From: Escherichia phage C1
Strand: one strand, 5' to 3'
Sequence record: NC_054651.1
Length of the DNA: 46,667 nucleotides
The notes under the pieces were generated by a model. It saw only the letters and a program-made list of their open reading frames with translations, was not told the origin of the DNA and made no database searches. Of the stretch, positions 3,226 through 38,352 are shown one piece after another; position 1 is the first letter of the stretch, and the number at the start of each line of letters is the position of its first letter. A program made the position numbers and the translations under genes.

Positions 3226-7026
<3,801 letters not shown>

Positions 7027-7027
<1 letters not shown>

Positions 7028-9939
7028 TATTCTGTTGCTCTCCTGTTGGTATTGTAATTTCTAGAAATGGCCTGCCCTATCGGGCCATTTTCCGAAATGT
7101 CACTAACAATAGTCTCAATTGTCACGCTGCCGTCACCATTATCTCTTGCGGTTGATGAGGTTGTTGCCCCGCTGCTGGTATTGATGACGTTATTATAAAT
7201 AACGATACCACTACCACCTCCAGTCAGGTCTTTGTTGCTGATAACGCGACCACTATCCCCCGGGATCATGTACTGATGACCGTTTGATGCCTGGAATATC
7301 TCAGGGAGGTTATTCTCGCCCACCCTGTACATCGAGCCTTCCTGCGCTGGTCCGCCGTTTTTCAGCGCGCCAGCAATGGATAGTGTTTTTGCAAGACCAA
7401 CTGTTGCTGACATCCCGGCCATTGCTGGTGCTGAGTTTGCCCCAGCCGTTGCCAGTGAGGTCATGGCTGCTGCTGGAGCCATTGCTGCTGATATTGCCGC
7501 TGCCTGAGCTATTGTCGCTGCAGAAGCCGCGCTCATTCCTGCAGCACCCATGATAGCTGATTTGGCCCAGTCTATACCCATTTGCACAAACGCATTGATA
7601 ACACTGGACAGGATGTTTGAGCCAATTGATCGCAGAGCATCTGATACAGACATTGAGCCAGTAAGGATGCCAGTAAGCGCATTTCCAGCGGTCTGCCCGA
7701 AAGCATCAAACGCCGCCGCAGCCGCTTGCGTTGCTGCGCTTTGCTGACTCCACTCCTGCCACATTGCTTCAAGTCGCTGTTGGCGGTATTGCGCTTCAAT
7801 TGCTGCGCGAGTCTGCTCAATCTCCGTGATTTTTTGTGGATATGCTGCGGCGTATGCTTCAAGGTCAGCCATATCCTTCTGATAGGATGTTTCTACAGCA
7901 AACATTGGTGAGGTTTGTGATTTTAGTGCGCTGTATCCTTTTACGGCATCTATTCTTTTCTTTTCCGCCGCAACCTGTTCCTTCAGTGCATTCTTCTGGT
8001 CCCAAATCTTCGCCGCGTACTCACCAGCCAGTTTTATTTGTTCCTGAGTTGCCGCCTTGCCAAGAGATTGCTGAGCGTTGAGAATGGCTTGCTCGCGTGA
8101 TAGTTCTTTTGTGGATTCTGCCTGACCAGCAAGTAGAGCCTCCTGCCGCAGTTTATTTAATTTCTGCTGGATGGTTTCCTGTTGATTTAGTTCAGTCTTA
8201 AGCTGGTTATTTGCATTGCGCTCATCCCTTGCCGCTTGTGCATTTTTCTCCTGCTGACGATATGTCTCAAGTCTGACATTGTAATATTCACGAAACGCAG
8301 CGGTATTCTGCTTTAATCCCTGAGCTTCAGCATCACGCCACGCCTGAGCTTTTAGCTTTTCATCGCCAGTTTGTTTCTCAATAAATAATGTCTGGCGAGC
8401 GGTTTGTAGCGCCTTATCCTGACTTGATGTTAAGGAGTCTGTCATCTCCTTGAGAGCTTTCAGGCGCATTGTTGCGTCAGTTGTTGTGGTAGCAATTTCC
8501 AGCAAGCGAGCTGCATATTCTCTTGCCTTTTGCGCGCCAGATGACTGTCCCTCGCCTACCTTTTGCAGAGTAACGATTAACTCATTAAGTTTTTCATTGC
8601 TCGGATTTTTGGCGATTTCAGAGAGTTGCTTGGCAAATTCAAAAGCCTGCTGGTCGGTCAAATCAAAGCGACTTGCCAGAGCGCCTACTGTGGCAATCAT
8701 GTTATTCATCGTGGATTGCCCGGCAAGTCCGGCTGATGCTGCCTGCTTCATCGCTTCACCGAAATCATTGGTGGTGATATTCAGCATGGACAGGTAATCA
8801 TTAAACGATTTAACGCTGACATTAGCTCCTGACAATGAAGCAAAAAGACGATCGCCAAAGGTTACGAACTCACTGGATGCTTTTGATACTTCCTTAGATA
8901 CCTTTGAGAGCGCCGCTGAAAGTTCAAGTTGCGCTTGCTGGCGCATCAGTGTTGCAACGGTTGTGTTTGCCCTTGCTAATGCCGCAAACTTATCTGAGTA
9001 TGCTGCCACGCCATTGCTTGAAACGCTGATAACCTGATCCATTGCAGAAATGGCATCTTTCATGGCATCAATGGCATTTTTGCCGTTACTCAGCGAGGCC
9101 ATCAGTGAACCAGCAATAACTGTCGCAATTGTCAATACTGCGCCAGCTACCGGACTGAATACAGATGCAAGTTGTGAACCTTGCTGACTGAATGCAACAA
9201 GCGCAGACTGACCACTTTGAACCTGAACAATAAAGTCCTGAACCTGATAGCCACCCTGTTGCAGCGCGTTCCTGAAACCGTTTGTGGATTTGCCAGCCGA
9301 CTCTGTACCGTTTTTCATGTCGTACAGGCGACCAGTCAGCTCAGCAATCTTGGCCTTTTGTGCGTCAGTTGCGCCATCTCCAGCTCTGAGTTGTGCTGCA
9401 AGAATGGCTGCGCTTCGTGCGCCGTTTTCCATTTGCTCTTCAAGAATTGCAACCTGATTTCCGAGACTTTCAATTAATCTTTCTGTGCCAGATATGCTTG
9501 CGCCAGCGCCGCCAGTAGATGTACCAAGCTCACGAATAGCAGTCGTAACAGCATTAATTGAGGTTTCCAGTCTGCCAGTAGAAACAGCGGCTTGTTGCTG
9601 TTGCTGCTGCATCATGGCGAGTTGCTGATTTAGAGCGTCGATAACCTGATTCGCTGACTCAGCAGACTGCGATGTCGATTTGACAGCACTTGCCGCGCCA
9701 TCACTGGAGGCCGCCATCTTGCTAAGTGTGGCATCAATGCTTTTAACCACGGAGACAAGGGAAGAGAATGCCTTTCCGGTTGAATCAGCCTGACCATCAA
9801 GTTTATTTAAATTCTTCGTGGAGCCACTTACAGCTGAGTCAAATTTTGATAACTCTGATTCCGCTGAGCTTGCTCCTGCTTTAAGCCCGGATACATCCAT
9901 CCCGACTTCATAGACAATTCCGCCGACTTCTTCAGCCAT
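7027..9939 (-). CDS. tail tape measure protein
   Basis: 970 aa, Ala/Gln/Ser-rich with long predicted coiled-coil stretches and poly-Q run, hydrophobic C-terminal region; located between chaperone-like gene and minor tail genes. Confidence 0.85.
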
Positions 9940-10655
9940 TATGTATTCCTCGCTTTTTTCGCTTTGCGTTCAGTCAGTGCCTTCATGCGCTCGCGGTCTG
10001 CTTTAGCCTGATCGTACTCTGCTGCGCGTTCTTCTTTCGTTAACCCTTTCGGTTCTGGATATTTATTCTTAATCATCATCTGAAACTCTGTCATGGACAG
10101 GTTTTCTGCCTCATCACGCGTCATGTCGAAGTGCGTGCGTGCTGAGATGATGTATTGCGACGCATGAAACTCGTTTGTTGTTTTCTTGCCCTGCTCTTCC
10201 AGACGTTCAGGAACCTTGAGCGGCGACTTGCCAATGATGCCATGCTGCATCAGATTGCGTGCAATAATAATAATATCACTCACTGGCATGATGCCTGGAA
10301 CATACCGCACGCCGCGCGGTGTTAGTTTCCATCCACCAATCAGCACAGAAATATCATCTTCACAGCATGACTGCATGACGATATAGGCCGCGCTCAGCAC
10401 ATGGCGACCATACACGGGCTTACTGATGGTCTTCATGACCTGCATCTGCGCGCCAAATGGCAGGTATTCTACGTGCTGTAATGGAGCAATATAATCAATG
10501 CCATTGAGTCTTGCGTACACCTCGACGATTTCTTTTGGTGTGCCGATTTCATTCATGGCGCGGAATGATGGCTTGAAGAAAAAACTCCTGTCGGAAAGCG
10601 AGATGCGCATCTCTCCGATTTCTGTTAGTGGCGTGCGATTGCTCATGTTTTGCAT
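9939..10655 (-). CDS. putative tail assembly chaperone
   Basis: 238 aa ORF whose stop overlaps TMP start; position only. Confidence 0.4.
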   Translation of the reverse strand: MQNMSNRTPLTEIGEMRISLSDRSFFFKPSFRAMNEIGTPKEIVEVYARLNGIDYIAPLQHVEYLPFGAQMQVMKTISKPVYGRHVLSAAYIVMQSCCEDDISVLIGGWKLTPRGVRYVPGIMPVSDIIIIARNLMQHGIIGKSPLKVPERLEEQGKKTTNEFHASQYIISARTHFDMTRDEAENLSMTEFQMMIKNKYPEPKGLTKEERAAEYDQAKADRERMKALTERKAKKARNT

Positions 10656-10667
10656 CCTGAATTTGAC

Positions 10668-10725
10668 TGATGTTGATTATATCATCTCAGTGGTGTTGAC
10701 ACCTGTGAGGTGGTGATGTAGATTC
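10668..10725. promoter_or_regulatory. divergent promoter module A: minus-strand extended -10 (TGATATAAT) and plus-strand TTGACA-17-TAGATT
   Basis: Plus strand GATTATATCA...GGTGTTGACA-N17-TAGATT; the reverse complement of the first part is TGATATAAT; near-copy of the module at 12774..12821. Confidence 0.5.
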
Positions 10726-10763
10726 AAGTCATCGAAACGAGTGATGAATAAATGAGGTGAGTT

Positions 10764-11057
10764 ATGAAAATTAAAATGTTGATTGCATCAGCGCTATTGG
10801 CTTCTTCCTTTGCTGTCAGTGCGACATCTGAGGTTTGCAAAAACATTGGAGAAATCGCCATGAACACTGCTGATGTTCGCGATAACGGTATCAGCAAGAA
10901 TCTTGCCGAGGTGGTAGTTAAAGGTTCCGCAAAAAACAACGAATCAGCAGAAATAATCGGCCTTGCTATCGTAGAAATGGTTTATGCACGCAAGGATATG
11001 ACCAAAGAGCAGTTGCGTGATGTGGCTATTGCTTTGTGCGAAAAGAATGGAATGTAA
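10764..11057 (+). CDS. secreted small protein (signal peptide), unknown function
   Basis: 97 aa; N-terminus MKIKMLIASALLASSFAVSA is a typical Sec signal peptide; first gene of plus-strand moron cassette. Confidence 0.5.
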   Translation: MKIKMLIASALLASSFAVSATSEVCKNIGEIAMNTADVRDNGISKNLAEVVVKGSAKNNESAEIIGLAIVEMVYARKDMTKEQLRDVAIALCEKNGM

Positions 11058-11089
11058 TATCAGCAAGTTGCTAAAAATTGAGGTGAGTT

Positions 11090-11284
11090 ATGGACGTTGT
11101 TATTTTGCTGTTTTTTGTTGGTTTGGTGATATTTGCGTACCTTCTGCCATCTTTTGTGGCGCTGCAGCGCAAGCACGTAAACACGACTGCAATCTGCGTA
11201 CTGAATATTCTTATTGGATGGAGTTTTATTGGATGGGTAGCAGCGCTTGTTTGGGCATTAGTTAAGAGCGACGATAAAAAATGA
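11090..11284 (+). CDS. superinfection immunity (Imm-like) small membrane protein
   Basis: 64 aa, two hydrophobic helices; block YLLPSFVALQRKHVNTTAICVLNILIGWSFIGWVAALVWAL matches the remembered pattern of the superinfection-immunity family (LPS.IA..R.H.N...N...GW..IGW..AL.WA). Confidence 0.55.
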   Translation: MDVVILLFFVGLVIFAYLLPSFVALQRKHVNTTAICVLNILIGWSFIGWVAALVWALVKSDDKK

Positions 11285-11424
11285 ACGAACAAACAAAAGC
11301 TGACCTGATTTTCTACACTGATCTGTATGTTGATGCAGGTTACGACTACGAAGAAGCGGAGCGAATGGCGAAAGATTTGCTTCGTGTGATTGGTGTGATT
11401 TTTGATGAGGATAAGGTGATATGA
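11281..11424 (+). CDS. hypothetical small protein
   Basis: 47 aa ORF (below track threshold) with ATG overlapping preceding stop; translationally coupled position. Confidence 0.3.
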   Translation: MNEQTKADLIFYTDLYVDAGYDYEEAERMAKDLLRVIGVIFDEDKVI

Positions 11425-11795
11425 AAAATTATGAAGATATGAGTGATTTTGAGATTAACTCAGCAGTGCATAATGCTCTAATGCAGGAGCCGTACAAAAT
11501 TGAATTTCTTGGCAATGACAGAATAAGATGGGTGAGAGGTTCAACTGACGTAACGACAGGAAAAGTAGGGTATGGCAAGCGCTCTCTTAAAGACTATTGC
11601 AATAATCCAGCTGATGCTGAACCTATTATTATTGAAAACAGAATTGGCACCATTCCAGCACCAGATAATGGATTGTGGAAAGCTGCGCATAGAAAGGTTG
11701 GCAATGATGATACGCCATACCATTTTACTCAAGATAAAAACCCGCTCCGCGCCGCTATGATTGTTTTCCTGAAAATGAATGAGGATAAATTATGA
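11421..11795 (+). CDS. hypothetical protein (NinX/DUF2591-like N-terminus)
   Basis: 124 aa; N-terminal MSDFEINSAVHNALMQ resembles DUF2591; start overlaps upstream stop. Confidence 0.45.
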   Translation: MKNYEDMSDFEINSAVHNALMQEPYKIEFLGNDRIRWVRGSTDVTTGKVGYGKRSLKDYCNNPADAEPIIIENRIGTIPAPDNGLWKAAHRKVGNDDTPYHFTQDKNPLRAAMIVFLKMNEDKL

Positions 11796-11992
11796 TACAG
11801 TGGATTAAGTGTGGTGAGCGGATGCCTGAAGAAGGCCAAATGGTTCTCACGTCGTTTCGTGGCGTCGTTAGAACTGCGGCATGTAAAGTTGTCGACAACA
11901 TTGGCAGTAAGATTTTTGTTAGTGAATTAGACCGCTGTCACGGCATTCCAGCTACCCATTGGGTCAATCCACCGCAGCCGCCACAAGAATAA
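11792..11992 (+). CDS. hypothetical protein (DUF551-like)
   Basis: 66 aa; N-terminal WIKCGERMPEEGQMVL resembles the DUF551 signature. Confidence 0.4.
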   Translation: MIQWIKCGERMPEEGQMVLTSFRGVVRTAACKVVDNIGSKIFVSELDRCHGIPATHWVNPPQPPQE

Positions 11993-11994
11993 AA

Positions 11995-12022
11995 CAAAGC
12001 CCCTTTCGGGGCTTTTTTGTTT
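11995..12022. terminator. bidirectional rho-independent terminator
   Basis: AAAGCCCC-tttc-GGGGCTTT hairpin flanked by A-run and T-run; lies between convergent gene ends 11992 (+) and 12024 (-). Confidence 0.7.
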
Positions 12023-12023
12023 A

Positions 12024-12740
12024 TCAGGACACAGTGCAAGCCGTGCTGATGATAATTTCAGGGTCAGTGGACGAGTCAGTCACCGTGACGGTATATACAC
12101 CAGCGGTTGGGCTTGCCAGTGATGCGCCGGACTCACTGCCGACAACCACACCATCTTTGCGCCACACGTAGGTGTAAGGAGAGACGCCACCTTCAACAGC
12201 AACGGTTAACGGGCTGCCAGCCGTTCCAGTTGATTGCAGGTCGGTAGTGAATGCCAGAGGTTCAAGGCTTTCTACGGTAACGCTGTCAGAATCGTAAACC
12301 TTAAACTCAAGGCTGCCAGTAACGATGTCGTTTGTGCCACCTTCGTAGCTGATGCTGGTAATGTTGCAGTACGCGGTCACGATAGTCGCACCGGTCACCT
12401 CGCGCACCCACAAGGAAGGCTGGCGACGCGCTTTCAGTTCAGTGGTGTAAATCTCAACCAGACGATGGAAACCAAACTCATCGCTCGGGTCATTTTTGCG
12501 TATCTCAACCTCTGCGCTGATGGTCATATCAGAGCTGGTAACGAGAGTGGAAACAAAACCGCCAGTGGTGTCAGCTTCAGACGTGGTAGTCTGCGGCGAG
12601 TAGTCCACGCCTTTACTGGTGGTTGAGCCTAAATATTTCCAGTCTTCTGCTGCCGGAACTGCGTCACCGCATCCCTCAGCAAGGAACAGTCGAGTCATGC
12701 GACCGACCAGAACGCCTTTATCATTTGCACAAATAGCCAT
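12024..12740 (-). CDS. major tail protein (lambda V-like, C-terminal Ig-like domain)
   Basis: 238 aa; C-terminal 80 aa has Big_2-like Ig pattern (TVAVEGGVSPYTYVWRKDG...GVYTVTVTD); strong SD (GGAGA) before ATG. Confidence 0.65.
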   Translation of the reverse strand: MAICANDKGVLVGRMTRLFLAEGCGDAVPAAEDWKYLGSTTSKGVDYSPQTTTSEADTTGGFVSTLVTSSDMTISAEVEIRKNDPSDEFGFHRLVEIYTTELKARRQPSLWVREVTGATIVTAYCNITSISYEGGTNDIVTGSLEFKVYDSDSVTVESLEPLAFTTDLQSTGTAGSPLTVAVEGGVSPYTYVWRKDGVVVGSESGASLASPTAGVYTVTVTDSSTDPEIIISTACTVS

Positions 12741-12773
12741 TTCGATCTCCGAATTGTGTTAGCTGCTAACGTG

Positions 12774-12821
12774 GTGATTATATCACAGGTGTTGACAGTG
12801 ATTATTTTGTGGTGTAGATTG
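12774..12821. promoter_or_regulatory. divergent promoter module B: minus-strand extended -10 (TGTGATATAAT) for major tail gene and plus-strand TTGACA-17-TAGATT
   Basis: Plus strand TGATTATATCACAGGTGTTGACA-N17-TAGATT; near-copy of module A. Confidence 0.5.
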
Positions 12822-13262
12822 TATTTCAGATAGTTTTCGTGAGCGACTTTGCGGACTTTTTAGAAACTGACCACAAAGATAAATGCAAACGATGATGTTG
12901 TTCTGATGGCGGCGTAATAGCCTGTAAGTCAGCAAGGTCTTCCGATTCCTTGTAAACAAATTCGGCGCAGTGGCCCGCTGTGATTAATAATGGGCACACA
13001 ACAGGTAAGAGCATTGAGTCGATAATCGTGAAGAGTAGGCGCGCTTGGTTAGCCAGTGATCTTTCCGTTGTGGTAATGCCATCTTGATTATTTGGATAGG
13101 TTTGCATCCATTGTTATGCCAGTTTCAGTTAATCGCGAAACGCCACAACACTTAACATTCAGCATTAATTGAAAACAATTTTCCGTAATTATGTATAGGG
13201 GTATGCAGGGATTACGGAGCTGGATGTTAAGAAAGCACGCTGGCAATGCTTAAACCAGTAAT

Positions 13263-13291
13263 AAAGCCGCTTCATGCGGCTTTATTTATTT
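13263..13291. terminator. rho-independent terminator
   Basis: AAAGCCGC-ttcat-GCGGCTTT hairpin followed by TTTATTTATTT on plus strand; also immediately 3' of minus-strand gene 13286..13660. Confidence 0.6.
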
Positions 13292-14402: not shown

Positions 14403-14821
14403 TTACTCCCACGCACAACCGCAAACCACGGCTTGCCGCCGCCGTCAGGGTCTTCCACCAAATCGCCAGTGCATCCTGCTGTATCCAGTAGTTTCATCTG
14501 ATTGTACAGCGCCACCCACGGCTTACTGCCATACGAGAATGATTGTGATGCACCAGATGGTGCGCTCTGGCTGGTAACGTAGCGCCCGGCGGTATTTGCG
14601 CTAATCAGAATTGAAGCCCACAGCATGATCGCATTTTGTCGGCATTCATCATTTGGGTAGCTCAGCTCAAGGCATTCACTGATTGACGCCACAAGGCACA
14701 GAATGCCAGACGCATCCGTTGTGGTGATAGTCATCCCGCGCGACGCCATCTGACTGACCAGCTCTTCAGGTGTTGGTGCTGTCATTTCTCTTTGACTCCC
14801 GTACTTTCCACCACATCTCAA
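14393..14821 (-). CDS. head-tail connector/adaptor protein (putative)
   Basis: ORF-track ORF; likely true start at MTAPTPEE (about 14785); synteny. Confidence 0.4.
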   Translation of the reverse strand: MRCGGKYGSQREMTAPTPEELVSQMASRGMTITTTDASGILCLVASISECLELSYPNDECRQNAIMLWASILISANTAGRYVTSQSAPSGASQSFSYGSKPWVALYNQMKLLDTAGCTGDLVEDPDGGGKPWFAVVRGSKCK

Positions 14822-15050
14822 ACAGGTTCTTTATTACCAGCGACAGTGCACCGAGGATTGACGCCACTGCCGCCCACTCCGTCAGGCTGTGTGGAATCAT
14901 AGCCTCAAAATAAGACTGCGTGACAGGTGTTTGCTCTGCAACTTTCAGGCCGATGCCAGTACCAATAGAGGCATATCCAGCCTTGTCAATCACCTGTCCC
15001 GTCGTCCCGCTTATAACCTGCTCTGCGGCCTGCCTTAGTGTTTCGTTCAT
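14766..15050 (-). CDS. small protein with C-terminal transmembrane helix
   Basis: 94 aa; hydrophobic stretch WAAVASILGALSLVIKNLF then basic tail. Confidence 0.4.
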   Translation of the reverse strand: MNETLRQAAEQVISGTTGQVIDKAGYASIGTGIGLKVAEQTPVTQSYFEAMIPHSLTEWAAVASILGALSLVIKNLFEMWWKVRESKRNDSTNT

Positions 15051-15082
15051 TGCGAGTCTCGCTGATGATATGTTTCCAGCAC

Positions 15083-15523
15083 TTATAGATTTGAATCAGC
15101 GAAAAAACGATGGCGACCACGCCAAGAACAATGTCCAATTTCGCCGCCCCATTTAAAAGTGATGGAAAGGATGAACAGATGGATGCCGATAATAATAAAT
15201 GCGTACTGCGCATGAAGCGGCGTTTCTACAGGCGTGATAAATTCCCATACGAATGACTCTATCGCTACCAGCCATTCGTAAAGGCTCATCGTCAGCACGC
15301 AGAGCGCCATCTTTGTACTTTTGCGCAGCGCAATAGCTGGAAACAACCAGATCATAGACTGCGCAAGGTAATACAGATATTCGGCGGGAAATGAATCAGC
15401 AAGCACCCATCCAAGATACACAGACATCGCCATTGCCGGAATGAACACCAGAAACGCAACCATGCCCGTGCAGGCAAAACCCAGCACATACATGATCATG
15501 ATGGCAATGTCTGCGCCGAACAT
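15083..15523 (-). CDS. polytopic inner-membrane protein, unknown function
   Basis: 146 aa with about 4 hydrophobic helices. Confidence 0.45.
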   Translation of the reverse strand: MFGADIAIMIMYVLGFACTGMVAFLVFIPAMAMSVYLGWVLADSFPAEYLYYLAQSMIWLFPAIALRKSTKMALCVLTMSLYEWLVAIESFVWEFITPVETPLHAQYAFIIIGIHLFILSITFKWGGEIGHCSWRGRHRFFADSNL

Positions 15524-15936: not shown

Positions 15937-16746
15937 ATGAAAACACTAAGCAAAATCTATTCAGACAAAGAAACGCGCAACGGTATCGCTGTCAATAAAA
16001 CCTATCTCGTGCCAGTTGAGCAAATCTATCTTGAGCCTGGATACAACATCCGCGAAGCCGATGAACAGCATGTGGAATATTTCGCGCAGTGCTGGGAATC
16101 AGGTCAGCCACTGCCAGCATTAACAGTTATTCCTGACGAGAAGGGAATCCGCATTCTTGATGGTCAACATCGCTACCTCGGCGCATTGCGTGCCATTGAG
16201 CGTGGCGCACCAATCGTTCGTATTGAGTGTAAGGATTTCACTGGCGATGAGGCGGACAAAATTGCCTTCATGGTGTCATCCAGTCAGGGGAAGCAACTTG
16301 ACCCGTTTGAGCGCGCAAAGGCTTACACACGACTGAAGGGTTTTGGCTGGACGAATGAAGAAATAGCCAAGAAGGTAGGTCGTTCAGTATCTGACGTGCA
16401 GATGCATCTGTCACTGGGTGATGTGCCTGCGGAAGTAAAAGCGCGAATCAGTGCCGGGCAAATCAGCTATGCAAATGCCGTAGCAGTAACTCGCGAGCAT
16501 GGCGATGATGCGGTAAAAGTTATCGACGAGGCAGTCGAAGAAGCTAAAGCACAAGGCAAAGACAAGGTCACAGCCAAAGTGCTGAAGTCGAAAAAGATTA
16601 AGCCAATAGACCGCCTGATTGAGTTATTGAAGCCAGCAGACCATGTGATTCTTCCTGCTGGTCATGTAGTGGCAGAGGATGAGGAGTTTATCCAGATTCC
16701 TGTTGCTGATATTCACGAGGTTATGGCAATTCTGGAGAAGATGTGA
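15937..16746 (+). CDS. ParB-like nuclease domain protein
   Basis: 269 aa; ParB/Srx N-terminal domain pattern including ILDGQHRYLGALRA; stop overlaps downstream start. Confidence 0.7.
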   Translation: MKTLSKIYSDKETRNGIAVNKTYLVPVEQIYLEPGYNIREADEQHVEYFAQCWESGQPLPALTVIPDEKGIRILDGQHRYLGALRAIERGAPIVRIECKDFTGDEADKIAFMVSSSQGKQLDPFERAKAYTRLKGFGWTNEEIAKKVGRSVSDVQMHLSLGDVPAEVKARISAGQISYANAVAVTREHGDDAVKVIDEAVEEAKAQGKDKVTAKVLKSKKIKPIDRLIELLKPADHVILPAGHVVAEDEEFIQIPVADIHEVMAILEKM

Positions 16747-17626
16747 TGATTATAAATGAAGACGTGAAATTAATTCATGGCGATTGCCTGGAAGTCATGA
16801 AGTCTATTCCTTACAGTAGCGTTGATTTGATTTTGTGCGATTTGCCGTATGGGACGACACGCAACAAGTGGGATAGCGTTATAGAACTGCAGTCGATGTG
16901 GGCCGAGTACAAGCGCATTTCCCGTGGCGCTATCGTGCTCACAGCGCAGGCGCCATTCGACAAGATTCTTGGAGCATCAAATATCGGCATGTTTCGATAT
17001 GAGTGGATCTGGCAAAAAACGAAAGCAACAGGTCACTTGAACGCAAAGATTCAGCCAATGAAAAACCATGAAAACGTCCTTGTTTTTACAAGTCACTACC
17101 AGTGTACAACCCACAGGGACTGGTAAGAAAAGCAGTTCCAACCATAAGAAAGGGTGGAAACAACGGTACGAACTACGGCAAATCAGACAAGGACGCGATT
17201 CAGGAATTTGAGAACTACCCGCGCTCAATCATTGCGATACCAAGCGAAGGCAGAACCATTCACCCAACCCAGAAGCCAGTCGCGCTGATGGAGTACCTTG
17301 TCCGCACCTACACCAACGAAGGCGACGTGGTTATGGATAACTGCATGGGTAGTGGCACGACCGGAGTCGCCTGCGTGAACACTGGTCGTCGTTTCATCGG
17401 AATAGAAAAAGATGATGAGTATTTTGAAATAGCAAAAAAAAAGGATTTTAGGATGAACGCCGAACAATTCATCGAAAAACAACTCCGCGCCAAGCTGCCT
17501 GACATCGACCAGATGGCAGTTGATGCGGCGATTCAGTATTACAAGCGCAATCAGAGCGCAAAGAAGGGTGGCATTTTTGAAGAATGCCTGAAGGTTGCAA
17601 GGCAACACATGATTAAGGTGAAGTGA
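16743..17626 (+). pseudogene. N6-adenine DNA methyltransferase (Dam-like, beta class), split by a frameshift near 17072..17126
   Basis: ORF 16743..17126 carries LILCDLPYG (motif IV-like) and ends ...[19 protein letters not shown]; overlapping ORF in another frame (17102..17626) carries HPTQKP and [12 protein letters not shown] (motif I, AdoMet binding). Confidence 0.7.
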
Positions 17627-37811: not shown

Positions 37812-38323
37812 TTATTGCACCTCGTAAGAGTTAGTGATTGCCTTAATGCGGCGACGATACCATTGCATGATGTGTTCGTTATGCCAGTTGCTCATTTTGT
37901 TACCCCTTATAACCTGATTTAGAAACTGCCACTGAGATAATGATGAATGCCACGATAATCAGACTGGCGATAAGTTCGAATGTTGCTCCTGTCATTTACT
38001 TAACCCATACGCTGAGATTAAAGCCTGCATTGCCGCGTTCCAGAATGCTTCCGCAGGAATGCTATTGTTTGCGCGGTTAACTGCAATGCGTGCCATAGCT
38101 TGTGCATCTTCAAATTCTTCACGGTCTTTGATTTTCATTATGCGTACCTGTTATATGAAAGTTTTTTACATGCGTAATATTGTTTTTCTGCATAAGCAAA
38201 GGTCTTTCCAGTCTTCATCATCGCATCAATGAATTTGTGCGCGTCACCCTTTGACTCGCAATACAGAGCTATTGCGTATTTGGTAGGTTTCATCTCTTCA
38301 CCCTCGTTTGTTCCGATGAGTTC

Positions 38324-38352
38324 AATCTACATCAACGACGATTCTACGTCAA
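38324..38352 (-). promoter_or_regulatory. sigma70-type promoter (TTGACG-17-TAGATT) for leftward operon
   Basis: Read on minus strand; two copies of the GTAGAWT motif. Confidence 0.5.

What the first reader, a model, noticed from the sequence alone, without database searches (positions are those of the whole stretch)
10764..11992. Moron cassette with Imm-like superinfection-immunity gene inside the tail module
Five plus-strand genes with their own promoter and a bidirectional terminator are inserted between the major tail gene and the chaperone-TMP genes. They encode a signal-peptide-bearing secreted protein, a 64 aa two-TM protein matching the superinfection-immunity family pattern, and DUF2591-like and DUF551-like small proteins. 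Such cassettes typically act in superinfection exclusion or host modification.
Basis: partly seen in the sequence, partly recalled or inferred. Interest (0 to 1): 0.6.

Follow-up and report, generated by a model that had tools for sequence, protein, structure and literature searches.

The report
Accessory early-gene cassette with Imm homologue
A five-gene cassette read against the tail genes of a virulent E. coli phage carries a true relative of the phage T4 Imm protein, which blocks DNA entry by later-arriving phages; near-identical phages already carry this annotation, so the finding is correct but ordinary.

Summary
The window is the whole genome of Escherichia phage S192 (ON239132.1), a virulent siphovirus of the Skatevirus cluster. 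Five translationally packed + strand genes (10764-11992) lie between the major tail gene and the DUF6246/tape-measure genes. A sigma-70-like promoter (10696-10724) precedes them and a bidirectional hairpin terminator (11996-12015) ends them.

All four family calls are confirmed: a signal-peptide protein, a 64-aa two-TM protein in PF14373 (63.5 bits; 36% identical to T4 Imm), NinX/DUF2591 and DUF551.

The promoter hexamers and terminator stem are conserved in every close relative examined, while the gene content is a mosaic. Distant relatives have the two tail genes adjacent, so the cassette is an insertion hot spot.

The secreted 97-aa protein belongs to a narrow, uncharacterised phage family. 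It resembles T4 Spackle in size and build but shows no detectable sequence or fold similarity. It and Imm occur independently, yet every close relative has at least one.

Exclusion function is inferred from homology only. Relatives (Skate, Bas77, KFSST1) already annotate the gene as superinfection immunity, so novelty is low.

The parts
10676..10684 (-). Extended -10 promoter element TGATATAAT facing the DUF6246/tape-measure genes. It lies back-to-back with the cassette promoter.
   Evidence: Only two copies exist in the genome, here and at 12777-12785 upstream of the major tail gene. It is conserved as TGnTATAAT in all 34 related loci. Function is inferred.
10696..10724 (+). Sigma-70-like promoter of the cassette: TTGACA, 17-nt spacer, TAGATT.
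   Evidence: 3 genomic copies against 0.19 expected. The hexamers are invariant in 34 of 34 relatives while the spacer varies. No transcript data.
10753..10766 (+). Ribosome-binding junction TGAGGTGAGTTATG ahead of the 97-aa gene. The identical 14-mer recurs at 11079-11092 ahead of the Imm gene.
   Evidence: Read directly. Relatives that lack the 97-aa gene join the promoter leader to the Imm ATG through this same junction.
10764..11057 (+). 97-aa exported protein ('SP97'): signal peptide, then a four-helix mature domain with two invariant cysteines (C25, C92) and a conserved R39-D40-x-G42 motif. Function unknown.
   Evidence: phrog_2315 (unknown function), no Pfam match. AlphaFold2 gives pLDDT of about 90 for the mature part. 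Only 24 cluster representatives in 1.84 billion proteins match. Alignment A3. dN/dS 0.10.
11090..11284 (+). 64-aa two-TM inner-membrane protein, a homologue of T4 Imm (superinfection immunity).
   Evidence: PF14373 63.5 bits, E 1.7e-17. phrog_1039 'immunity to superinfection', E 5.8e-23. 36% identical to T4 Imm over 53 residues, E 8e-12. T4 Imm itself scores 58.2 bits on the same model. Two hydrophobic segments, about residues 3-24 and 33-58. dN/dS 0.05.
11281..11424 (+). 47-aa acidic protein ('p47'), the constant core gene of the cassette. Function unknown.
   Evidence: phrog_17424, E 1.8e-36. Detected in every close relative and, at 52-55% identity, in L035 and L036. Found in 203 phage records. 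dN/dS 0.05.
11421..11795 (+). 124-aa NinX / DUF2591-family protein. A variable module.
   Evidence: PF10765 55.8 bits. Present in 12 of the relatives as alleles 32-70% identical to S192's.
11792..11992 (+). 66-aa DUF551-family protein. A variable-allele module.
   Evidence: PF04448 42.6 bits. Alleles are 30-87% identical across relatives. The homologous gene is deleted in some viable genome-reduced seszw mutants.
11996..12015 (.). Bidirectional intrinsic terminator, AAAGCCCC-TTTC-GGGGCTTT, shared by the cassette and the convergent major tail gene.
   Evidence: Found on both strands. Folding energy -16.1 kcal/mol. The stem is invariant in 33 of 33 relatives and the loop varies.
12024..12740 (-). 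Major tail protein with a C-terminal Ig-like domain (flank).
   Evidence: phrog_853, E 3.5e-86.
9939..10655 (-). DUF6246 protein in the position of the tail-assembly chaperone, directly upstream of the tape-measure gene (flank).
   Evidence: PF19759 244 bits. The chaperone role is inferred from position only.
12777..12820 (.). Second copy of the back-to-back promoter module: TGATATAAT on the - strand facing the major tail gene, and TTGACA-17-TAGATT on the + strand facing a second variable slot.

Best explanation
The region is an accessory transcription unit sitting in a recombination hot spot of the tail module of a virulent Skatevirus-cluster siphovirus.

Transcription (inferred). Host RNA polymerase starts at a conserved sigma-70-type promoter. 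This promoter lies back-to-back with the extended -10 promoter that serves the DUF6246/tape-measure genes. RNA polymerase then reads five tightly coupled small genes antisense to the tail genes and stops at a hairpin that also terminates the convergent major tail gene. Expression is probably early.

Products. The 64-aa product is a bona fide member of the T4 Imm family. It most likely inserts into the inner membrane of the infected cell and prevents DNA of later-arriving phages from crossing it, as T4 Imm does (inferred from homology). The promoter-proximal 97-aa product is exported to the periplasm, where it folds into a disulfide-stapled four-helix domain. Its target is unknown; my best guess is a second, independent envelope-level exclusion or envelope-protection factor. 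The 47-aa, NinX and DUF551 proteins are cytoplasmic accessory proteins of unknown role.

Evolution. Modules are swapped in and out between the fixed promoter and terminator. Part of this exchange goes through the repeated ribosome-binding junction TGAGGTGAGTTATG.
For: Shown:
- Gene, promoter and terminator anatomy.
- Promoter motif enrichment and phylogenetic conservation of the hexamers and hairpin against variable surroundings.
- Membership of PF14373 and direct similarity to T4 Imm.
- Purifying selection on the genes.
- Mosaic content in 33 close relatives: Imm in 25, SP97 in 20, NinX in 12 of the related loci, p47 in all.
- Absence of the cassette where the tail genes are only 28-51% identical.
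- The same junction sequence in Imm-first variants.
- Virulent lifestyle indicators (PMC11990801).
- The same layout in an unrelated genus: in Jerseyvirus 'wast', Imm is the first gene of an opposite-strand cassette between the major tail and chaperone/tape-measure genes.

Suggestive: SP97 and Imm never both go missing in close relatives (12 both, 8 SP97 only, 13 Imm only, 0 neither; one-sided Fisher p = 0.009, not corrected for phylogeny).

Background on T4 Imm and Spackle comes from PMC7677548.
Against: - There are no expression or phenotype data for this lineage. I found no test of any Imm homologue from this phage group, and T4 Imm's own mechanism is unresolved.
- T4 Imm acts against T-even phages, whose DNA entry route differs from that of siphoviruses.
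- The promoter is only a consensus match, and its -10 hexamer is 4 of 6.
- The G+C deviation is modest.
- 8 of 33 close relatives do without Imm, so it is dispensable.
- SP97 has no informative sequence or fold match.
Confidence: 0.55

Rival explanations
1. The 97-aa exported protein and the Imm homologue form a T4-like Spackle plus Imm pair. Imm blocks DNA transfer at the inner membrane. The periplasmic protein inhibits a cell-wall-degrading activity of incoming tails, for example the NlpC/P60 minor tail protein.
For: Both genes are adjacent and promoter-proximal. SP97 shares gross features with T4 Spackle: a 97-aa precursor, a signal peptide, a mature helical bundle of about 75 aa and one disulfide linking the first and last helices (PMC7677548). 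The tail encodes an NlpC/P60-domain protein at 5642-6121.
Confidence: 0.15
2. The 64-aa protein shares the Imm fold and family but does something other than exclusion in this phage. Examples are tuning lysis timing or holin function, or protecting the infected envelope against lysis from without. The 'superinfection immunity' label would then be an over-transferred annotation.
For: The family is defined by a 42-residue two-TM core. It is spread over very different phages, including T4-like phages, podoviruses and mycobacteriophages (1,551 records). Function rests on T4 alone. There is a weak match to a two-TM module of a candidate defence effector (PADLOC 2TM-TIR, E 0.002). The SP97 homologue in a Klebsiella relative lies next to the lysis cassette.
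Against: The direct pairwise similarity to T4 Imm covers both TM segments and the loop. It recurs at the promoter-proximal position of early, antisense cassettes in two siphovirus groups, which fits a function needed immediately after infection. The lysis genes lie elsewhere in the genome (Bas77 map).
Confidence: 0.2
3. The cassette is not a foreign 'moron'. It is an old, lineage-typical early operon that happens to lie within the tail module, and its main role could be regulatory, for example a promoter/terminator module organising tail gene transcription.
For: The promoter, p47 and the terminator are present in all relatives, down to 54% major-tail-protein identity. G+C is only about 1.5 sd below the genome mean. 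The same back-to-back promoter module also precedes the major tail gene. Genome-reduced seszw mutants down to 36.5 kb keep the SP97 and p47 homologues in all records sampled (PMC9825161).
Against: More distant relatives have the tail genes adjacent with no cassette. The protein genes are under purifying selection, so they are not mere spacers. Gene content is mosaic, as expected for accessory cargo. Retention in seszw may only mean these genes or their regulatory surroundings were not targeted, and the per-gene table was not available.
Confidence: 0.15

Closest known systems
Bacteriophage T4 Imm (immunity to superinfection; Pfam PF14373, phrog_1039)
   Same: A small two-TM inner-membrane protein. 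The S192 protein scores 63.5 bits on PF14373 against 58.2 for T4 Imm itself, and is 36% identical over 53 residues. Shared motifs include LP-x-F[VI]AL and W-S-[FI]-IGW. Both come from virulent phages.
   Different: 64 aa against 83 aa, lacking T4 Imm's C-terminal tail. It is carried by a siphovirus that recognises O-antigen (PMC11990801) rather than a contractile-tailed T-even phage. It lies in an antisense cassette inside the tail module rather than among replication genes. No phenotype is known.
Annotated homologues in the Skatevirus cluster (Skate CPT_Skate_059, Bas77_0061, KFSST1, KFS-SE2, Sf11)
   Same: The same locus, promoter and terminator, with 83-96% protein identity. These genes are already labelled 'superinfection immunity protein', and Bas77's carries the PHROG category that includes 'moron'.
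   Different: The S192 record calls all five genes hypothetical. S192 carries one of the fullest versions, with all five modules and a 1,368-nt slot against 666-1,370 nt in close relatives.
Bacteriophage T4 Spackle (gp61.3; PF25676)
   Same: For the 97-aa protein only: identical precursor length, an exported product, a small helical bundle with one disulfide, and encoded by a virulent phage.
   Different: No sequence similarity, family match or detectable fold match. No lysozyme domain was identified in the S192 tail proteins; only an NlpC/P60 protein was found.
Morons of lambdoid prophages (extra gene units with their own promoter and terminator between conserved genes)
   Same: Own promoter and terminator, inserted between genes that are adjacent in relatives, lower G+C, located in the tail region, and encoding envelope proteins.
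   Different: The carrier phage appears virulent, so there is no expression from a repressed prophage and no lysogenic conversion. The slot is an old, multi-gene, modular hot spot rather than a single recent insertion.
Jerseyvirus (Guernseyvirinae) opposite-strand cassette between the major tail and chaperone/tape-measure genes
   Same: In Salmonella phage wast, an Imm homologue is the first gene of an opposite-strand unit at the equivalent position. An Imm-like gene has been noted in silico for Jerseyvirus SeF1 (PMC9409062).
   Different: The other cargo differs: phosphoesterase, endonuclease and a DNA-binding protein. The Imm is only about 42% identical.

Membership tests
T4 Imm / PF14373 Imm_superinfect | Match to the family HMM above the curated cut-off | tested here: met
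   63.5 bits against a cut-off of 27.9, E 1.7e-17, covering profile positions 2-42 of 42. phrog_1039, E 5.8e-23.
T4 Imm / PF14373 Imm_superinfect | Direct similarity to the founding member, T4 Imm | tested here: met
   BLASTP: 36% identity over 53 residues, E 8e-12. tblastn finds the imm genes of Tequatrovirus genomes. T4 Imm itself scores 58.2 bits on PF14373.
T4 Imm / PF14373 Imm_superinfect | Small protein with two hydrophobic membrane-spanning segments | tested here: met
   64 aa. The Kyte-Doolittle profile shows two hydrophobic blocks, about residues 3-24 and 33-58, separated by QRKHVNTT. No dedicated topology predictor was available.
T4 Imm / PF14373 Imm_superinfect | Early expression after infection | not testable with these tools
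   Only a conserved sigma-70-like promoter is available. No transcript data were found.
T4 Imm / PF14373 Imm_superinfect | Blocks DNA entry of superinfecting phage (exclusion phenotype) | not testable with these tools
   I found no experimental report for this phage group in the searched literature.
Moron (Hendrix/Juhala sense) | Own promoter and own terminator flanking the extra genes | tested here: met
   Predicted and phylogenetically conserved promoter and bidirectional terminator. In silico only.
Moron (Hendrix/Juhala sense) | Lies between genes that are adjacent in related phages | tested here: met
   The major tail and DUF6246 genes are 63-70 nt apart in L039, L040, L045-L047, L049 and L056.
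Moron (Hendrix/Juhala sense) | Nucleotide composition distinct from the surrounding genome | tested here: inconclusive
   42.1% G+C against a genome value of 46.6%. 9% of equal-sized windows are as low or lower.
Moron (Hendrix/Juhala sense) | Carried by a temperate phage and expressed from the prophage | tested here: not met
   No integrase or repressor is annotated in Bas77 or detected in S192-specific ORFs. No copy exists in 5,426 complete E. coli genomes. The group is described as lytic.
T4 Spackle (PF25676) | Match to the family HMM or pairwise similarity | tested here: not met
   No Pfam match at E <= 1 for the 97-aa protein. BLASTP against T4 Spackle gives E 9.1. T4 Spackle scores 150.9 bits on PF25676.
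T4 Spackle (PF25676) | Same fold as the solved Spackle structure | tested here: not met
T4 Spackle (PF25676) | Exported small helical protein with an intramolecular disulfide | tested here: met
   Signal-peptide-like N-terminus, four helices at pLDDT of about 90, and invariant C25 and C92. The disulfide is inferred, not shown.
P22 NinX (PF10765, formerly DUF2591) | Match above the curated cut-off | tested here: met
   55.8 bits against a cut-off of 22.6, covering profile positions 1-113 of 114.
DUF551 (PF04448) | Match above the curated cut-off | tested here: met
   42.6 bits against a cut-off of 22, covering the full profile.

The most novel reading that the evidence does not exclude
The 97-aa exported protein (phrog_2315 family) is a previously unrecognised periplasmic superinfection-exclusion or envelope-protection factor of siphoviruses. 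It would be functionally interchangeable with Imm: a Spackle analogue with an unrelated fold. Every close relative keeps at least one of the two at the promoter-proximal position. The same back-to-back promoter module has also seeded two antisense cargo slots, one on each side of the major tail gene.
Probability: 0.2. Interest if true: 0.5.

Novelty: already known. Interest (0 to 1): 0.27.

Why it matters
If the Imm homologue and the exported protein do exclude secondary infections, they would limit co-infection and recombination among the many Skatevirus-type phages now proposed for Salmonella and E. coli biocontrol. They would also affect how such phages behave in cocktails. The locus is a compact natural 'landing pad' (fixed promoter, fixed terminator, swappable small genes) that could be used for phage engineering. 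For basic biology it offers a tractable second system, besides T4, for working out how Imm-family proteins block DNA entry. As a discovery it adds little, because the gene is already annotated in near-identical genomes.

Tried and rejected
1. Spackle hypothesis for the 97-aa protein. It was prompted by identical length, a signal peptide and a disulfide. No sequence, HMM or fold similarity was found, and the gene is distributed independently of Imm.
2. A solved-structure relative for the 97-aa protein by sequence. Only chance-level hits were found.
3. Naming the 97-aa family through an exhaustive profile search. There were only 24 representatives, all unnamed. One distant member lies in the replication region of an unrelated phage contig. 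PHROG places them all in phrog_2315, of unknown function.
4. tRNA or structured RNA in the window. None was found.
5. Known defence-system or NCBIfam matches for the five proteins. There were none except a weak 2TM-TIR hit.
6. A per-gene essentiality table from the seszw genome-reduction paper. The supplements are not held, so I inferred retention or deletion from the deposited mutant genomes instead.
7. One literature search failed on a too-short term, and one promoter pattern was mis-spaced and uninformative.
8. The 82-aa + strand ORF 11017-11265 is an out-of-frame overlap of the Imm gene that recurs only because Imm is conserved (cluster X3). It was rejected as a gene.
Full report
**Identity of the window.** The 46,667-base window is the complete record of Escherichia phage S192 (ON239132.1, reverse complement). 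It was isolated on E. coli from piglet intestine and is filed under genus Deseoctovirus. Its close relatives are the siphoviruses that the BASEL collection paper groups as the Skatevirus cluster. These have 46-48 kb genomes and depend on O-antigen (PMC11990801).

The group appears virulent:
- The well-annotated relative Bas77 has its own primase, SSB, exonuclease and terminase genes but no integrase or repressor.
- The parts of S192 that do not align to Bas77 encode no recombinase.
- The tail region has no match in 5,426 complete E. coli genomes.

Five + strand ORFs occupy 10764-11992, of 97, 64, 47, 124 and 66 aa. The last four are linked by ATGA stop/start overlaps, which indicates translational coupling. 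They lie between the - strand major tail gene (12024-12740, phrog_853) and the - strand DUF6246 gene (9939-10655). The DUF6246 gene abuts the 970-aa tape-measure gene.

- Promoter. A sigma-70-like promoter, TTGACA-17-TAGATT, sits at 10696-10724. Allowing one mismatch, the motif occurs three times in the genome against 0.19 expected.
- Terminator. The hairpin 11996-12015 has T-runs on both sides and scores as a terminator on both strands.
- Conservation. In 34 related loci fetched with the DUF6246 protein, both promoter hexamers are invariant while the spacer and flanks vary. This holds even in two loci whose major tail protein is only 54% identical. The terminator stem is invariant in 33 of 33 close relatives, with changes only in the loop.
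- Coding status. The genes evolve under purifying selection, with dN/dS of 0.05-0.26.

**The family calls are correct.**
- The 64-aa protein matches PF14373 (Imm_superinfect) at 63.5 bits against a cut-off of 27.9, and phrog_1039 'immunity to superinfection'. I fetched T4 imm. T4 Imm scores 58.2 bits on the same model and aligns to the S192 protein at 36% identity over 53 residues, E 8e-12. A tblastn search also reaches the imm genes of T4-like phages directly. Hydropathy shows two membrane-spanning segments.
- The 124-aa protein is NinX (PF10765, formerly DUF2591) and the 66-aa protein is DUF551.
- The 47-aa protein belongs to phrog_17424, of unknown function.
- The 97-aa protein has a typical signal peptide (MKIK, a hydrophobic core, VSA|TS). 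It has no Pfam match, only phrog_2315 of unknown function.

**The cassette is an insertion hot spot with fixed ends and swappable cargo.** In 33 close relatives (major tail protein at least 90% identical) the slot is 666-1,370 nt long; S192's is 1,368 nt, one of the fullest.
- The 47-aa gene is detectable in all of them.
- DUF551 is present in most, as alleles 30-87% identical.
- Imm is in 25, the 97-aa gene is in 20, and NinX is in 12 of the related loci.
- Occasional other genes appear: a 93-aa protein with a C-terminal TM segment, and a methyltransferase-like gene in the more distant L035.

In more distant relatives (major tail protein 28-51% identical) the major tail and DUF6246 genes are separated by as little as 63-70 nt.

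In S192 the same 14-nt ribosome-binding junction, TGAGGTGAGTTATG, precedes both the 97-aa gene (10753-10766) and the Imm gene (11079-11092). Relatives that lack the 97-aa gene join the promoter leader to the Imm start through exactly this junction. I infer that modules are gained and lost by recombination at such junctions.

G+C of the cassette is 42.1% against 46.6% for the genome. That is a modest deviation, at the 9th percentile.

**The promoter is one half of a repeated, back-to-back module.** Immediately upstream on the other strand lies TGATATAAT (10676-10684). This is a perfect extended -10 element facing the DUF6246/tape-measure genes. The only other copy in the genome (12777-12785) faces the major tail gene and is again paired with TTGACA-17-TAGATT on the + strand (12792-12820).

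That second + strand promoter opens a second variable slot, at 12741-13285. In 21 of the 36 related loci that carry this slot it holds one to four tRNA genes on the cassette strand. In S192 it holds no recognisable gene, and in distant relatives it is usually only 51-98 nt. The major tail gene is thus bracketed by two antisense cargo slots that were seeded by the same promoter module.

The third copy of the promoter motif (38324-38352, - strand) lies in a promoter-rich intergenic region ahead of a block of small genes. This fits, but does not prove, early expression by host RNA polymerase.

**The 97-aa exported protein.** I tested whether it is a Spackle-like partner of Imm, because T4 uses Imm together with Spackle for exclusion. 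Spackle is a 97-aa precursor that matures to a 75-aa helical bundle with a C29-C81 disulfide (PMC7677548).
- An AlphaFold2 model gives four helices with pLDDT of about 90 for the mature part.
- An alignment with distant homologues shows invariant C25, R39 and C92, and near-invariant D40, G42 and Y74.
- The family is narrow: 24 representatives among 1.84 billion proteins. Members sit in different contexts. One is in a replication region of an unrelated phage contig. Another lies divergent from the lysis cassette in Klebsiella phage KP591P1.

Across the 33 close relatives the 97-aa gene and Imm occur independently: 12 have both, 8 have only the 97-aa gene and 13 have only Imm. None lacks both (one-sided Fisher p = 0.009, not corrected for phylogeny or duplicate isolates). 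This argues against an obligate pair. It hints at overlapping roles, and that is inference only.

**Experimental hints from the literature.** Phage seszw, which equals locus L006, carries the 97-aa, 47-aa and DUF551 genes but no Imm. It was subjected to iterative CRISPR genome reduction (PMC9825161). Among the deposited mutant genomes I sampled, 25 of 27 keep the whole cassette. Two lack only the DUF551 gene. All sampled mutants keep the 97-aa gene, including the 36.7-kb seszw_300L. DUF551 is therefore dispensable in the laboratory. Retention of the other two genes is uninformative without the per-gene table, which is not held. I found no test of an Imm homologue from this phage group. A Jerseyvirus paper makes the same in-silico inference (PMC9409062).

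**Mechanism.**
- Shown: the anatomy, the family membership, the conservation and the mosaicism.
- Inferred: host RNA polymerase transcribes the unit soon after infection. The 64-aa protein inserts in the inner membrane and prevents DNA of later-arriving phages from entering, as T4 Imm does. The 97-aa protein acts in the periplasm on an unknown target. The remaining three proteins act in the cytoplasm.
- Rivals: (a) a Spackle/Imm-like two-component system; (b) an Imm-fold protein with a non-exclusion membrane role; (c) an old lineage-typical operon whose main value is regulatory.

I put about 0.55 on the homology-based exclusion mechanism. The structural description is much more secure.

**Comparison and novelty.** The 64-aa protein is a member of the T4 Imm family, since every sequence-level criterion is met. 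The unit has the anatomy of a moron but not its classical prophage context. The same layout, with Imm as the first gene of an opposite-strand unit between the major tail and chaperone/tape-measure genes, exists in Jerseyvirus.

Near-identical genes are already annotated as 'superinfection immunity protein' in Skate, KFSST1, KFS-SE2 and Bas77, where the gene is tagged with the PHROG category that includes morons. The S192 record simply leaves them hypothetical. The finding is therefore right but already known. The uncharacterised points are the exported 97-aa family, its complementary distribution with Imm, and the duplicated promoter module with two cargo slots.

Noticed in passing
window 12741-13285: A second variable slot lies upstream of the major tail gene. 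It is opened by a second copy of the back-to-back promoter module (12777-12820) and closed by a hairpin near 13257-13277. In 21 of 36 related loci that carry this slot it holds 1-4 tRNA genes (Met, Ile, Arg, Ser, Thr) on the strand opposite the tail genes. S192 has no tRNA, Rfam or PHROG match there, and distant relatives have only 51-98 nt.
   Followed up: partly
window 38324-38352 (- strand): A third copy of the cassette-type promoter (TTGACG-17-TAGATT) lies in a promoter-rich intergenic region, about 30 nt upstream of a small - strand gene starting at 38292. It may mark the class of early promoters.
   Followed up: no
window 16743-17626: The DNA methyltransferase appears split into two overlapping ORFs (16743-17126 and 17102-17626). 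Only the second matches the C-terminal part of PF01555. Bas77 has a single 265-aa gene. This could be a frameshift, a pseudogene or a sequencing error.
   Followed up: no
window 14766-15523 (- strand): [quoted passage not shown] They are further candidates for envelope modification or exclusion.
   Followed up: no
L006 / MH791410.1 and MZ3752xx-MZ3753xx seszw mutant genomes: In the CRISPR genome-reduction series of phage seszw, only the DUF551 gene of the cassette is deleted, in a few isolates. The homologues of the 97-aa and 47-aa genes persist in every sampled mutant down to about 36.5 kb.
   Followed up: partly
L063 (Salmonella phage wast, NC_073174.1) 3468-6450: Jerseyvirus has the same architecture: an opposite-strand unit between the major tail and chaperone/tape-measure genes, with an Imm homologue as its first gene, followed by phosphoesterase, endonuclease and DNA-binding genes.
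   Followed up: partly
L062 (Klebsiella phage KP591P1) 2941-3231: A 30%-identical homologue of the 97-aa exported protein is the first gene of a unit that diverges from the endolysin-holin-spanin cassette. This location differs from the one in S192.
   Followed up: no
window 5642-6121 (- strand): A minor tail protein carries an NlpC/P60 domain (36 bits). It is the only cell-wall-hydrolase-like domain found among the tail proteins scanned.
   Followed up: no
window 11090-11284: The Imm homologue gives a weak match (E 0.002, 16.5 bits) to the two-TM part of the PADLOC candidate defence protein '2TM-TIR'. This may reflect hydrophobic bias or a shared membrane module.
   Followed up: no
L030 4085-4396 region (Escherichia phage vB_EcoS_swi2 type): In this relative the Imm domain is the C-terminal part of a longer 104-aa ORF with a different N-terminus, in the promoter-proximal position.
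   Followed up: no
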